DNA of 64,000 bases from Eledone cirrhosa (Eukaryota): positions 120,528,001 to 120,592,000 of the forward strand of contig OZ024741.1 in NCBI GenBank assembly GCA_964016885.1. Direction: 5' to 3'. Positions 23,211 to 55,207 of this stretch are shown piece after piece. How positions within the stretch are numbered: position 1 is the first letter of the stretch; every line of letters starts with the position of its first letter. The position numbers and the translations under genes are program-made. Below the pieces are notes generated by a model that saw only the letters and a list, made by a program, of their open reading frames with translations, was not told where the DNA came from and did not search any database.

Positions 23211-26020
23211 ATCGCGGCGCGGATTCTAAGAAGAACTGTGGGTCTTCCACAAATTTGGAGGTTCAAAATTATAATCAGTTATTCTGTAAAAAAAAAAAAA
23301 TGGAAATATAGTCACTGTTTTTATGAAGACAAGAGTGACAACGGAATTTTAAAAAATTTACATATATATATATATATATACATATATATACATACACATA
23401 CACATATACACATATACATATACACATATACACATATACACATATATATACACATATATATATATACACATATATATATATATACACATATATATATATA
23501 TACACATATATATATATATACACATATATATATATATACACATATATATATATATACACATATATATACACATATATATATATATACACATATATATACA
23601 CATATATATATATATACACATATATATATATATACACATATATATATATATACACATATATATATATATACACATATATATATATATACACATATATATA
23701 TATATACACATATATATATATATACACATATATATATATATACACATATATATATATATACACATATATATATATATACACATATATATATATATACACA
23801 TATATATATATATACACATATATATATATATACACATATATATATATACACATATATATATATACACATATATATATATACACATATATATATATACACA
23901 TATATATATATACACATATATATATATACACATATATATATATACACATATATATATATACACATATATATATATACACATATATATATATACACATATA
24001 TATATATACACATATATATATATACACATATATATATATACACATATATATATATACACATATATATATATACACATATATATATATACACATATATATA
24101 TATACACATATATATATATACACATATATATATATACACATATATATATATACACATATATATATATACACATATATATATACACATATATATATACACA
24201 TATATATATATACACATATATATATACACATATATATATATACACATATATATATACACACATATATATATATACACATATATATATACACATATATATA
24301 TACACATATATATATACACACATATATATATACACATATATATATACACATATATATATACACATATATATATACACATATATATATACACATATATATA
24401 TACACATATATATATATACATACACATATATATATATACACATATATATATATACATATATATATATATACATATATATATATACATATATACATATATA
24501 CATATATATATATACATATATATATATACATATATACATATATATATATACATATATACATATATATATATACATATATACATATATATATATATATACA
24601 TATATATATACATATATATATATACATATACATATATATATACATATATATATATACATATATATATACACATATACATATATATATATACATATACATA
24701 TATATATATACATATACATATACATATATATATATATATACATATACATATATACATATATATATATATACATATATATATATACATATATATATATATA
24801 CATATATATATATATACATATATATATATACATATATATATATATATATACATATATATATATATACATATATATATATACATATATATATATACATATA
24901 TATATATACATATATATATATACATATATATATACATATATATACATATATATATATACACATATATATATATACATATATATATATATACATATATATA
25001 TATACATATATATATATACATATATATATATACATATATACATATATATATATACATATATATATATACATATATATATATACATATATATATATACATA
25101 TACATATATATACATATATATATATACATATATATATATACATATACATATATATACATATATATATATACATATATATACATATATATACATATATATA
25201 TATACATATATATATATATACATATACATATACATATATACATATATATACATATATATACATATATATACATATATATACATACATATATATACATATA
25301 TATATATACATATATATATATACATATATATATATACATATACATATATATATACATATACATACATATACACATATACATATACATATACATACACATA
25401 TACATATACATACATATACACATATACATATATACATATACATATATATACATATACATATATATATATACATATACATATATACATATATATACATATA
25501 TACATATATATATATATATACATATATATATATATACATATATATACATATATATATATATATACATATATATATATATATACATATATATACATATATA
25601 TATATACATACATATACATATATACATATACATATATATACATATATATATATACATACATATACATATATACATATACATATATATACATATACATATA
25701 TATATACATATACATATATATATACATATACATATACATATACATATACATATACATATACATATACATATATATATACATATACATATATATATACATA
25801 TACATATATATATACATATACATATATATATACATATACATATATATATACATATACATATATATATACATACATATACATATACATATACATATATACA
25901 TACATATATACATACATATATACATACATATATACATACATATATATATACATACATATATACATACATATATATATACATACATATATATATACATACA
26001 TATATACATACATATATATA

Positions 26021-26430
26021 TGGTGGCTGCCAACTCGTTTTCGAGTATGGCCACTACTTTATATCCATGTAGGAGAACTCCTACCGATGCGCTGAACGAG
26101 TGACTTTTTAGTCCAGCCAGCGACTTGAAAACTCTGGTACAAACACTACACTTGTGACAATTATTGACACACAGCGCTGGGCCCATGGTACCATGTGATG
26201 ACAAATGCAGAGAGATCTCCAGATATAAAGCAATGCCTGTGCCGTGAAGCTTTTATAGTGAGCAAAGGCACTGCACAAAGCCAGTCCCACTCTCTTAACC
26301 AAGATGATATTTACCAAAAAGAAGAACAAGTCAACATCATTGGATACCATCAGAGTTGCAGGTGTTATATCAGAGTTTTCCTTCTCCTAGAATTCTGCCT
26401 TGACAAAGGCTAAGGGGTCATCTCTCCCGG
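26021..26430 (-). mobile_element. Non-autonomous RTE-derived element (family B), copy 1, 5'-truncated
   Basis: Near-identical to the 3' 410 bp of 30140-30747. Confidence 0.85.
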
Positions 26431-26996
26431 ACATATATACATACATACATACATACATACATACATATATACATATACATACATACATATATATATACAT
26501 ATACACATATATATATACATATACATACATACATATATATATACATACATACATATATATATACATACATACATATATATATATATACATATACATACAT
26601 ACATATATATATACATATACATACATACATATATATATACATACATATATATATACATATACATACATACATATATATATACATACACATACATACATAT
26701 ATATATACATACATACATATATATATACATATACATACATATATATATACATACATATATATATACATACATATACATACATATATATATACATACATAT
26801 ATATATACATACATATACATATACATACATATACATACATATACATACATATATATACATACATATATATACATACATATATATACATACATATATATAC
26901 ATACATATATATACATACATATATATACATACATATATATACATACATATATATACATACATATATATACATACATATATATACATACATATATAT

Positions 26997-27783
26997 ATCA
27001 TCATCATCATCATCATCATCATCATCATCATCATCATCATCATCATCATCATCATCAACGTTTAACGTCCGTGTTCCACGCTTGCATGGGTTTGGACGAG
27101 GGTAGTCCCACTTGAGGCTAGAGTGATTGTCTTGCTCGCATAGGACTGTCTGGCAGGTTTTCTACAGTTGGATGCCCTTCCTAACACCAACCACATTTAC
27201 AGTGTGGGCCTGGGAGGTTTTTACCATGTTGCCTACACGGCCACATTACAGCGTGGACTGTGTTTTTTTGTCGTGACACCTACACGATCTCATTTGTTTC
27301 AGCCTCGATGGCGCGGCACCAACATAACTTTACATAGAACGGGGTGGTGTGAATGAGGTGGGGGTGGGGGTGGTGAGACGGGGTGTATTTTGTTAGAGAT
27401 GCCTACTGGCTGGAGTAGGTTTTACTATATATTTAGCTAAGGCGGGTCTTCTCTGTTACTGAGTACCGCCAAAGGTCTCGGTCCAGTGACATTGTCTTGG
27501 AGAGGTGTAAGTGTGTGATGTCGGAGTTTATCAGCTCGTCCCAGGTTTTTCTAGGTCTGCCTATTCCGTGACTACCGTCTATCTTTATTGCCCTGCACTT
27601 TGTTATACAGCTATCGACTTTCATGCGCATCACGTGTCCATACCAACGTAGCCTTCTCTCGAGTAAACAACATCTGATCCCTCTTATCTCTAATTTTTTC
27701 CTTAGTTCGTTTATGCTTTGCCGTTCACGTATATTACTGTTACACATCCAGCGGAGCATGCAAGCTTCGTTCCTCTCTAGTCT
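26997..27783 (-). mobile_element. RTE family A, 5'-truncated copy with long (TGA)n tail
   Basis: ORF 27433-27759 ([12 protein letters not shown]...GRPRKTW), 3' UTR and an (ATC)n run of about 20 units on +. Confidence 0.95.
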
Positions 27784-27852
27784 CTATATGCATACATATA
27801 TATATACATACATATATATATACATACATATATATATATATATATATATACA

Positions 27853-51247: not shown

Positions 51248-51292
51248 CATATACATACATATACATACATACATACATACATACATACATAC

Positions 51293-51621
51293 AGAAAAAT
51301 ACAGGAGGAGGACATCTAAGGACCATTGATGAGGAGTTTACAAATCCAGTATCCAAGATACACCTTTAGCTTCATACCCATCATTATTGGTGCTACGGGT
51401 TATATACCAACCCGCTTGGACCAAAGTATGACTGAACTTGGATTTGCGGACAAAAAGCGCAGCTCCCTAATTCATAGTCTACAAATGGCTGCGATAGCTG
51501 GCACCTTCAAAATTTGCAAAACATTCTTGCGATTCAAGGGATGACAATTTCTTTTCTTTTACAACCTTGCCACCAGGAAGGTGGCCGGTCAAAAAATACT
51601 CAAAATTAAGAGAAAGAGAAA
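51293..51621 (+). mobile_element. R4/Dong-like (restriction-like endonuclease) non-LTR retrotransposon, 3' fragment
   Basis: LMRSLQIQYPRYTFSFIPIIIGATGYIP...[17 protein letters not shown] resembles the P(I/V)(V/I)IG.(L/T)G...LQ.....GT.KI C-terminus of RLE-type LINEs. Confidence 0.65.
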
Positions 51622-54600
51622 ACATACATACACATACATACATACACATACATATATACATATATATATATACACATACACATATATACACATACACATA
51701 TATATACACATACACATATATATACACATACACATATATATACACACACATATATACACACACACATATATACATACATATATACACATATACACATACA
51801 TATATACACATATATACATACATACATATATATATATACATATATACATACATACACATATATATATATACACATATACATACATACACATATATATATA
51901 TACACATATGTACATACACATATATACATACACATATATATATATATACACATATATACATACACATATATACATATACACATACACATATACACATACA
52001 TACATATATACACATACATACATATATACACATACATACATATATACACATACATACATATATACACATACATACATATATACACATACATACATATATA
52101 CACATACATACATATATACACATACATACATATATACACATACATACATATATACACATACATACATATATACACATACATACATATATACACACACATA
52201 CATATATACACACACATACATATATACACACACATACATATATACACACACATACATATATACACACACATACATATATACACACACATACATATATACA
52301 CACACATACATATATACACACACATACATATATACACACACATACATATATACACACACATACATATATACACACACATACATATATACACACACATACA
52401 TATATACACACACATACATATATACACACACATACATATATACACACACATACATATATACACACACATACATATACACACACACATACATATACACACA
52501 CATACATATACACACACACACATATATACACACACATACATATATACACACACATACATATATACACACACATACATATATACACACACATACATATATA
52601 CACACACATACATATATACACATACATATATACACATACATATATACATACATATATACATACATATATACATACATATATACATACATACATATATACA
52701 TACATACATATATACATACATACATATATACATACATACATATATACATACATACATATATACATACATACATATATACATACATACATATATACATACA
52801 TACATACATACATACATACACATACATACATATATACATACATACATACATACACATACATACATACATATATACACATACATACATATATACACATCTA
52901 TACATATATACATACATATATACACATATACATACATATATACACATATACATACATATATACACATATACATACATATATACACACATACATACATATA
53001 TACACATATACATACATATATACATACATATATACACATATACATACACATATACACATATACATACATATATACATACATATATACATATACATATATA
53101 CACATATACATACATATATACACATATACATACACATATACATACATATACATACATATATATATACACATATACATACATATATATATACACATATACA
53201 TACATATATATATACACATATACATACATATATATATACACATATACATACATATATATATACACATATACATACATATATATATACACATATACATACA
53301 CATATACATACATATACATACACATATACATACATATATACACATATACATACATATATACACATATACATACATATATACACATATACATACATATATA
53401 CACATATACATACATATATACACATATACATACATATATACACATATACATACATATATACACATATACATACATATATACACATATATACATACATATA
53501 TACACATATATACATACATATATACACATATATACATACATATATACACATATATACATACATATATACACATATATACATATATACACATATATATACA
53601 CATATATATATACACATATATACACATATATATATACACATATATACACATATATATATACACATATATACACATATATATACACATATATACACACATA
53701 TATACACATATATACACATATATACACATACATATATACACATATATACACATACATATATACACATATATACATACATATATACACATATATACATACA
53801 TATATACACATATACACACATATATACATACATATATACACAACATATATACATACATATATACACATATATACATACATATATACACATACATACATAC
53901 ATATATACACATATATACACATATATACACATATATACATACATATACATACATATATACATACATATACATACATATACATACATATATACATACATAT
54001 ATACACATATATACATACATATATACACATATATACATACATATATACACATATATACATACATATATACACATATATACATACATATATACACATATAT
54101 ACATACATATATACACATATATGACATATATACATACATATATACACATATATACATACATATATACACATATATACATACATATATACACATATATACA
54201 TACATATATACACATATATACATACATATATACACATATATACATACATATATACACATATACATACATATATACACATATATACATACATATATACACA
54301 TATATACATACATATATACACATATATACATACATATATACACATACATATATACACATATATACATACATATATACACATACATATATACACATATATA
54401 CATACATATATACACATACATATATACACATATATACATACATATATACACATATATACACACATATATACATACATATATACACATATACATACATATA
54501 TACACATATACATACATATATACACATATACATACATATATACACATATACATACATATATACACATATATACATACATATATACACATATATACATACA

Positions 54601-55207
54601 TATATACATACATATATACATACATATATACATACATATATACATACATATATACACATATACATACATATATACATACACATATATACATATATACACA
54701 TACATATATACATATATACACATACATATATACATATATACACATACATATATAAATATATACACATATACATACATATATACACATATACATACATATA
54801 TACACATATACACATACATATATACACATATACACATACATATATACACATATACACATACATATATACACATATACACATACACATATACACATACATA
54901 TATACACATACATACATATATACACATACATACATATATACACATACATACATATATACACATACATACATATATACACATACATACATATATACACATA
55001 CATACATATATACACATACATACATATATACACATACATACATATATACACATACATACATATATACACATACATATATACACATACATACATATATACA
55101 CATACATACATATATACACATACATACATATATACACATACATACATATATACACATACATACATATATACACATACATACATATATATACACACATATA
55201 TACCTCT

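What the first reader, a model, noticed from the sequence alone, without database searches (positions are those of the whole stretch)
23358..55203. A 32-kb intronic microsatellite array acting as a landing pad for at least six retroelement types
Seen: about a dozen insertions (RTE-A x3, zinc-finger RTE, family B x5, CR1, R4/Dong-like, possible Tx1-like) are almost all bounded by TA/TACA repeat, and many copies are nearly identical, hence recent. The flanking 20 kb holds mostly old decayed elements. Established: some non-LTR lineages, such as Dong/R4 and several Tx1 families, target microsatellites, whereas RTE and CR1 are not classically sequence-specific. Inference: a feed-forward system in which the array attracts insertions (nick-prone AT cruciforms or priming by repeat tails) and keeps expanding around them, inflating the intron of a housekeeping helicase. 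This is the best candidate for an undescribed system here.
Basis: partly seen in the sequence, partly recalled or inferred. Interest (0 to 1): 0.75.

Follow-up and report, generated by a model that had tools for sequence, protein, structure and literature searches.

The report
Giant microsatellite collects repeat-seeking retrotransposons
A 32-kb stretch of AT/AC repeat in a helicase intron holds 13 jumping-gene insertions, and because those families sit in such repeats all over this genome at about the same density, it is likely just a very large target rather than a special landing pad, although one CR1-like family sits in unusually long repeats.

Summary
The array is real: 20.75 of 31.8 kb is strand-polarised (AY)n, in the predicted 47-kb first intron of a DDX3-like gene, with 13 insertions of 7 families. 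Targeting is family-wide: both ends lie in tracts for B (29-30 of 30), the R4/Dong-like LINE (29/29; 10/11) and the CR1-group LINE (27/29; 16/16), against about 7-10% by chance and 2 of 24 for a control SINE. But the locus is not super-attractive: genome background predicts 10-13 insertions for this much microsatellite, and 12 are seen. Junction duplications are only tens of bases, so insertions did not build the array; local slippage of longer repeat units likely did. Corrections: the 'Tx1-like' piece is a Hydra-type Penelope-like element; B is a bipartite non-autonomous RTE derivative (about 60,000-70,000 copies). The remaining surprise is that the CR1-group family sits in far longer tracts than expected (median 450 vs 82 bases per side), which I did not find in the papers searched. 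Microsatellite-targeting retroelements are known, and this scan has noted such communities repeatedly elsewhere in this genome. Junctions could not be confirmed by reads.

The parts
23359..55203 (+). Compound (AY)n microsatellite array, 20.75 kb of tract in eight main blocks, mosaic of locally homogenised higher-order units
26023..26430 (-). B1, 5'-truncated copy of bipartite non-autonomous RTE derivative (3' end at left)
26999..27784 (-). RTE-A copy 1, 5'-truncated, (GAT)n tail
27855..28451 (-). B2, near full length; followed by a 107-base inverted (RT)n patch at 28452-28558
30142..30746 (-). B3, full length, identical to at least 39 other genomic copies
30796..30968 (-). 3' end of an (ATT)n-associated element nested in the ATT stretch of the ZF-RTE 3' UTR (13th insertion)
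30969..31720 (-). Zinc-finger RTE-type LINE fragment (end of ORF and part of 3' UTR; its usual 3' terminus is missing); older family, about 95% to other copies
33168..33572 (-). B4, 5'-truncated
35526..37102 (+). RTE-A copy 2 (RT with PHD finger, 405-aa open frame), (GAT)n tail
41240..42086 (-).
42087..45233 (-). RTE-A copy 3, near full length (APE + RT, frameshifted), 3' UTR missing; junction with the Penelope-like piece found only here among 40 matches
49798..50519 (+). CR1-group LINE, 5'-truncated, 99.6% to other copies; family sits in long tracts
50646..51246 (-). B5, full length
51294..51621 (+). R4/Dong-like RLE LINE 3' end; family sits in (ACAT)n/(AY)n in fixed orientation
19131..64000 (-). 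Predicted intron 1 of a DDX3/PL10-like gene (about 47.2 kb; continues 2.4 kb beyond the window)

Best explanation
The array is an unusually long polarised (AY)n microsatellite that likely grew by its own slippage and local duplication, and it holds insertions of several retroelement families that sit in such repeats throughout this genome, at about the background density per repeat base. Shown: family-wide association with tracts on both sides, family-specific orientation, 5' truncation, background-level density, short junction duplications, mosaic higher-order units. Inferred mechanism: each family nicks or primes in the repeat by its own rule. The R4/Dong-like LINE likely uses its restriction-like endonuclease on the ACAT strand; B, mobilised in trans by a zinc-finger RTE-type LINE, likely primes through its 3' ...CAT(GT/AT) end on the opposite strand; RTE-A likely uses GAT/AT microhomology (partial preference, either orientation); the Penelope-like element likely uses a GIY-YIG nuclease on (TA)n; the CR1-group LINE enters either orientation and likely favours long TA-rich tracts through a structural feature (cruciform or break). 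The array comes first and the insertions follow.
For: Targeting (tool-ordered top hits, queries without flanks): B 29 of 30 3' and 30 of 30 5' flanks in tracts; R4-like 29 of 29 3'; CR1-group 27 of 29 3'; RTE-A 17 of 29 3'; Penelope-like 19 of 20 copies with a 3' end (of 29 loci). Visible 5' junctions in tracts: CR1-group 16 of 16 readable (1 at a gap, 12 ran off the locus), R4-like 10 of 11, RTE-A 8 of 11. Chance 9.7% one side, 6.9% both; control SINE 2 of 24, ATT element 0 of 24. Orientation: B 21 RT vs 2 AY, R4-like 25 AY vs 0 RT, CR1-group 10 vs 15, RTE-A 4 vs 4; window copies obey this. Density: 39 (conservative) to 50 copies of the same six families per 79.8 kb of tract in 80 windows (hand count) predict 10.1-13.0 in 20.75 kb; 12 seen, P(>=12) 0.32-0.65; B alone 4.2-5.2 expected, 5 seen. 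A 9-kb array met in a sampled window holds one such copy. Array polarity is the same around RTE-A copies of both orientations. Junction matches: CR1-group median 12, at most 25 bases (16 copies); window copies 9-21. Longest exact repeats within tracts 111-451 bases vs 45-72 in unit shuffles.
Against: The CR1-group family is length-selective (median one-side run 450 vs 82 bases; block bootstrap P 0.0002, TA-only background P 0.0008), which is super-linear for that family; B is marginally longer too (median 167, unadjusted P 0.048). The density test has low power (12 events) and hand-counted background; a twofold excess is not excluded. Present density cannot exclude past feedback, since tract growth after insertion dilutes it. 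Nesting on other elements' repeat stretches exists (ATT element in the ZF-RTE UTR; B directly after R4-like ends in L134, L136, L144). No orthologue, second individual or spanning read was available. Family samples are the youngest or longest copies only. No nicking or priming step was tested.
Confidence: 0.7

Rival explanations
1. Feed-forward landing pad: long tracts attract insertions more than in proportion to length, and insertion or its repair lengthens the tracts.
For: CR1-group copies sit in tracts about five times longer than length-biased background on the 3' side, and 5' runs are long as well; long TA repeats form cruciforms and break in human cells (PMC12018271, passages); flank expansion after insertion is reported for maize TAFTA elements (as cited in PMC5907723); nested use of other elements' repeat stretches. 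The window's array is far larger than any other seen (others 5-9 kb).
Against: No excess of insertions (12 vs 10-13); R4-like and Penelope-like copies sit in tracts no longer than background (medians 56 and 55.5); junction duplications of tens of bases cannot supply 20 kb; the longest tracts (2.7, 4.1, 4.6, 3.6 kb) carry no insertion and show slippage-type mosaics.
Confidence: 0.15
2. Assembly artefact: tract lengths are inflated or separate repeat-bounded pieces are mis-joined.
For: 4 of 6 distinct gaps met in fetched loci abut such tracts (7 rows, two being the same gap), so these arrays are hard to assemble; every insert is high-copy.
Against: No N in the window; uniform polarity over 32 kb; each tract has its own unit mosaic and tracts share no exact match above 185 bases; window B copies carry private differences; flank pairs match at junctions better than shuffled pairs (confounded by local dialect); exons 1 and 2 lie in the right order and strand on either side.
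Confidence: 0.08
3. Passive retention: elements insert at random and survive only in microsatellites (selection or low recombination), or they seed the repeats with their own tails.
For: Seeding by LINE tails is in print (PMC2887409, PMC6050309; passages); passive accumulation was proposed for Drosophila Waldo (PMC3812793); RTE-A carries its own (GAT)n tail.
Against: 5' junctions of truncated copies are also in tracts; orientation is fixed and family-specific; identical (very young) B copies already show it; a control SINE and an ATT-associated element do not; 5' and 3' polarity agree in 9 of 11 informative CR1-group copies.
Confidence: 0.05
4. Copies arose by tandem segmental duplication inside the array.
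For: B1 and B4 end within 5 bases of each other; tandem B and R4-like duplicates occur elsewhere (L187, L191).
Against: B1 and B4 differ at 2.7% and have different flanks; RTE-A copies differ in orientation and truncation; B3 is closer to 39 distant copies than to its neighbours.
Confidence: 0.02

Closest known systems
Microsatellite-specific non-LTR retrotransposons: WaldoAg1/2 and WaldoFs1 (ACAY), MinoAg1 (AC), Kibi (TC), Koshi (TTC), Dong/DongAg/DongBg (TAA) (PMC3812793, passages)
   Same: Both ends in a pre-existing microsatellite; ACAY-type target already known; R4-like family here has RT plus C-terminal zinc knuckle and RLE-like motif
   Different: Here the R4/Dong-like family uses ACAT rather than TAA, and RTE-type and CR1-group families, not on that list, show the same behaviour; several families share one target
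Hydra clade of Penelope-like elements (PMC8557442, section 11 and passages)
   Same: C-terminal GIY-YIG-type domain, CxCX5C linker, CxxC and CxH motifs, inverted partial copies, hammerhead core, (TA)n targets
   Different: No difference found; a likely new family. No tree built
Bipartite non-autonomous RTEs (Bov-A, RTESINE1/2, WALLSI3, MAR4; PMC5786205, passages) and the RTE tail/target correlation (PMC6007223, abstract and passages)
   Same: B joins RTE 5'-UTR-like and 3'-terminal sequence, has no ORF and is 5'-truncated; priming by microsatellite-like tails is proposed for RTEs
   Different: Near-strict, oriented microsatellite targeting; PMC2887409 states RTE sites do not appear sequence-specific and that RTEs seed repeats
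SaTar arrays in guayule and rice (PMC5907723, abstract and first part of Discussion)
   Same: Mixed-family, mostly non-nested arrays of elements separated by microsatellite, built by shared targeting
   Different: SaTars are Mutator-like DNA transposons in compact arrays; here retroelements in kilobase tracts, at background density
Microsatellite seeding by CR1-L3 and Rex LINEs in snakes (PMC6050309, passages)
   Same: CR1-group LINE tied to microsatellites
   Different: Seeding is one-sided (3' tail); here both ends lie in a long tract of shared polarity

Membership tests
   12 seen vs 10.1-13.0 expected; low power
   Junction matches 9-21 bases in 8 window copies; CR1-group at most 25; longer matches only in pure repeats
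   Met for CR1-group (P 0.0002), marginal for B and RTE-A, not for R4-like or Penelope-like
   No related genome is held
R4/Dong clade | Single ORF, RT, C-terminal zinc knuckle and restriction-like endonuclease, no APE | tested here: met
   1,174-aa ORF in 4 of 5 loci; RVT_1 and zf-RVT, no APE; RPD...E motif read by eye; PDB hits only R2 proteins
R4/Dong clade | (TAA)n target of Dong proper | tested here: not met
   29 of 29 3' flanks are ACAT/AY
R4/Dong clade | RT phylogeny | not tested
   No named reference sequences at hand; clade label rests on recalled domain order
Hydra-clade Penelope-like elements | C-terminal GIY-YIG-type nuclease with CxCX5C linker, CxxC and CxH | tested here: met
   Motifs read by eye in L256 and L260 translations against the paper's description; Pfam gave no hit
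Hydra-clade Penelope-like elements | Inverted partial copies and (TA)n targets | tested here: met
   Inverted copies starting at base 84-87 in many of 29 loci; 19 of 20 3' ends in tracts
Hydra-clade Penelope-like elements | Hammerhead ribozyme | tested here: inconclusive
   Core motif near 41420; not folded or scanned against Rfam
Tx1 clade | L1-type APE and RT | tested here: not met
   Longer relatives of 41240-42086 encode a Penelope-type RT and nuclease
Bipartite non-autonomous RTE (family B) | 5' and 3' parts homologous to an RTE-type LINE, middle deleted, no ORF | tested here: met
   B 210-416 aligns at about 70% just upstream of the ZF-RTE ORF, B 72-99 to the ORF end, B 2-31 to the 3' terminus, in 5 of 5 loci
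Bipartite non-autonomous RTE (family B) | Matching young autonomous partner | tested here: inconclusive
   Only a diverged sister family found; no partner among fetched loci
Bipartite non-autonomous RTE (family B) | Fixed 3' end, variable 5' truncation | tested here: met
   Ends at 149-605 with constant left end
CR1 group of LINEs | ORF with APE and RT, no C-terminal zinc knuckle | tested here: met
   976-aa frame, Exo_endo_phos and RVT_1; best PDB hit L1 ORF2p
CR1 group of LINEs | Clade (CR1, L2, Crack, Daphne, Kiri) by RT phylogeny | not tested
SaTar elements | Mutator-like terminal inverted repeats | tested here: not met
   All inserts are retroelement-derived; it works like SaTar clustering but is not a member

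The most novel reading that the evidence does not exclude
A CR1-group LINE in this genome reads tract length or structure rather than a short motif: it inserts into long TA-rich arrays (cruciforms or their breaks), so the longest arrays are true sinks, and break repair there lengthens them further. With five other families sharing the same repeat by strand-specific rules, this would be a retroelement-microsatellite feedback that inflates introns genome-wide.
Probability: 0.2. Interest if true: 0.65.

Novelty: new variant of a known kind. Interest (0 to 1): 0.36.

Why it matters
About a tenth of this 3-Gb genome is alternating microsatellite, and at least five unrelated retroelement enzymes appear to use it as a shared, likely harmless niche, each with its own strand rule. 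Young intact families (R4-like 99.5% alike with full ORFs; CR1-group 98-99%) make it possible to test how target choice evolves in clades thought to be unspecific. A length- or structure-sensing APE LINE would be a new targeting mode. The particular array is mainly an extreme example and a caution: a pile of elements in a repeat need not be a hotspot.

Tried and rejected
Sequencing runs: no RNA holder listed, so the gene model has no RNA check. A first attempt to lay reads on the left flank returned nothing. Laying four runs on the unique Penelope-like/RTE-A junction gave no listed record across 42073-42093; the tool states that a hole proves nothing (filtered records, fragmented contigs, RAD library), so junctions are neither confirmed nor refuted. 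Chimeric Penelope/RTE-A family: rejected, only the window's own place of 40 matches holds the whole junction. Long target duplications as the source of tract DNA: rejected. B as a MITE or with its 3' end at the right: rejected by truncation pattern and RTE homology. TSD tests beat shuffled pairs (B 12.8 vs 7.6, 0 of 1000) but are confounded by shared local repeat dialect. ZF-RTE flanks were not scored rigorously because several 5' junction calls were unreliable. Only 40 kb of a planned 200 kb of further neighbourhoods could be fetched, so the size distribution of large arrays rests on 80 windows plus 9 neighbourhoods. Sequence look-ups in earlier notes found nothing. Literature searches listed no paper on microsatellite targeting by octopus LINEs or on a length-selective CR1-group family; PMC13282606 (first third and term search), PMC9115989 (passages) and PMC13343379 (term search) did not mention it. 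Supplements, Repbase entries and the Kojima and Fujiwara 2003/2004 papers were not seen and may hold such families.

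
Full report
Observation. The array is there as described. Between 23359 and 55203, 20,751 of 31,845 bases lie in alternating purine/pyrimidine tracts, all reading (AY)n on the + strand but for a 107-base inverted patch. It is a genomic outlier: 80 evenly spaced 10-kb windows of this 3.0-Gb genome average 10.0% such tracts, at most 47%, and 2 of 1,886 tracts reach 1 kb; eight neighbourhoods picked for long flanks and one picked from the sample held arrays of at most about 5-9 kb. 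A DDX3-like gene lies on the minus strand (best PDB match DDX3X); its predicted exon 1 is 2.4 kb beyond the window and exon 2 starts at 19130, so the array fills two thirds of a predicted 47-kb first intron. The organism is probably an octopod; that comes from earlier scan notes and recalled resemblance, not from a test here.

Inventory. Thirteen insertions of seven families. RTE-A (three copies) encodes APE, RT and a PHD finger and ends in (GAT)n. The zinc-finger RTE has a 1,219-aa APE-RT-C2H2 frame in one fetched copy. Family B is not a separate kind: it has a fixed left end and variable right ends, and aligns to the zinc-finger RTE's 5' UTR (about 70%), ORF end and 3' terminus in 5 of 5 loci, the layout of bipartite non-autonomous RTEs (PMC5786205, passages). 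From 16-19 3' ends in 799 kb it has roughly 60,000-70,000 copies; at least 40 are identical. The R4/Dong-like family has intact 1,174-aa ORFs with RT, zinc knuckle and an RLE-like motif. The CR1-group family has a 976-aa APE-RT frame. The 'Tx1-like' piece is the 3' end of a Penelope-like element: relatives show inverted partial copies and encode a C-terminal nuclease with the CxCX5C, CxxC and CxH motifs listed for the Hydra clade, nearly all of whose families insert in (TA)n (PMC8557442 section 11). A thirteenth insert belongs to a family followed by (ATT)n in 22 of 24 loci by eye. Clade names other than these motif matches were not tested by trees.

Targeting is family-wide. With queries that excluded flanks, and dropping the window's own copy: B 29 of 30 3' and 30 of 30 5' flanks begin in a tract; R4-like 29 of 29; CR1-group 27 of 29; RTE-A 17 of 29; Penelope-like 19 of the 20 loci (of 29) that kept a 3' end. 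Where 5' junctions were visible they were in tracts for 16 of 16 readable CR1-group, 10 of 11 R4-like and 8 of 11 RTE-A copies. Chance is 9.7% for one side and 6.9% for both; a control SINE scored 2 of 24 and the ATT family 0 of 24. Orientation is family-specific: B faces the RT strand (21 vs 2), R4-like the AY strand (25 vs 0), CR1-group and RTE-A either. These samples are 24-30 top-scoring copies each, out of hundreds to thousands of candidates.

The locus is not special beyond its size. In the 80 windows I counted by hand 39 (conservative: tandem duplicates and non-tract RTE-A copies dropped) to 50 copies of the same six families per 79.8 kb of tract (three short internal RTE-A hits left out). 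That predicts 10.1-13.0 for 20.75 kb; 12 are present (P of 12 or more 0.32-0.65), and 4.2-5.2 B copies against 5. The test is weak, but gives no sign of attraction beyond target size. Insertions also did not build the array: matches across junctions are 9-21 bases for 8 window copies and at most 25 for 16 CR1-group copies, together about 1-2% of the tract DNA; polarity is unchanged around RTE-A copies of both orientations. The tracts are mosaics of locally repeated longer units, with exact internal repeats of 111-451 bases against 45-72 in unit shuffles and at most 185 between tracts. That points to slippage and local duplication (inference). Tandem duplication of the copies is not supported.

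The CR1-group family sits in much longer tracts than a length-biased draw predicts: median one-side run 450 bases (27 copies) against 82, block bootstrap P 0.0002, P 0.0008 for TA-only sites, and longer than B, RTE-A, R4-like or Penelope-like flanks (all P about 1e-4 or less). Its 5' runs are long too and polarity agrees across 9 of 11 informative insertions, so the tracts likely came first. None was found in the 80 windows. Long interrupted TA repeats form cruciforms and break in human cells (PMC12018271, passages), a plausible but untested cue; growth after insertion cannot be excluded without empty alleles. Small-scale nesting on other elements' repeat stretches is also real.

Mechanism (confidence 0.7): a self-expanding polarised microsatellite that serves as a large target for several families, each with its own nicking or priming rule. 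The flank statistics are shown; the enzymology is inferred from domain content and from published models (PMC3812793; PMC6007223). Rivals: true feedback 0.15, assembly artefact 0.08 (4 of 6 gaps met abut such tracts; reads could not settle it), passive retention or seeding 0.05, tandem duplication 0.02.

Known and new. Microsatellite-specific retroelements, including ACAY targeting by Waldo elements, are reviewed in PMC3812793 (passages); mixed arrays built by microsatellite targeting are described for plant SaTar elements (PMC5907723, abstract and part of Discussion); Dong-R4, CR1, RTE and Penelope are the listed recently active groups in Octopus vulgaris (PMC13282606, first third of the text). 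Six searches listed nothing on strict two-sided targeting by a bipartite RTE or on a length-selective CR1-group LINE; supplements and Repbase were not seen. Earlier unreviewed notes of this scan report ACAT-targeting Dong-like LINEs, TA-seeking RTEs, Hydra-type elements and ATT trains elsewhere in the same genome. Verdict: a real, extreme example of a known kind, with one new-looking variant; interest 0.36.

Noticed in passing
window 28452-28558 and 28559-28753: A 107-base (RT)n patch, opposite to the array's polarity, sits directly at the 5' junction of B2, followed by an ATCT-variant patch; possibly fill-in or template-switch DNA made at insertion.
   Followed up: no
window 42040-42100: RTE-A copy 3 lacks its 3' UTR and joins the Penelope-like piece through a short (AGAAGTGT)-type repeat; junction found only here among 40 matches.
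   Followed up: partly
L062-L090 (ZF-RTE family): The family carries a long inherited compound microsatellite (TG, TA, ATT, TTTA) inside its 3' UTR, spreading ready-made targets; an ATT-associated element used it at 30796-30968.
   Followed up: partly
L134, L136, L144, L191, L316: B copies sit 12-60 bases downstream of R4-like 3' ends, tail to tail on opposite strands of a shared ACAT tract.
   Followed up: partly
L008-L030 (B 5' junctions): About 15 of 30 full-length B copies show an extra A after ACATA at the 5' junction, suggesting a start that resembles the target and variable pairing there.
   Followed up: no
L147 and L148 (C1, 30 kb apart): Two R4-like copies with the same truncation point but different flank lengths: a likely duplicate showing fast tract change.
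   Followed up: no
window 22487-23358: Tc1/mariner-like remnant (87% to a copy in L192) forms the left edge of the array; a tRNA-type SINE at 55204-55414 forms the right edge.
   Followed up: no
window 4936-5140: A 95% copy of the upstream part of the ATT-associated family overlaps a SINE-like segment shared with 59352-59442, so that family may be a SINE.
   Followed up: no
L071, L072, L074, L083, L088, L129, L133, L245: Further short elements sharing B's two RTE-derived parts at 66-87%: an older series of bipartite derivatives.
   Followed up: no
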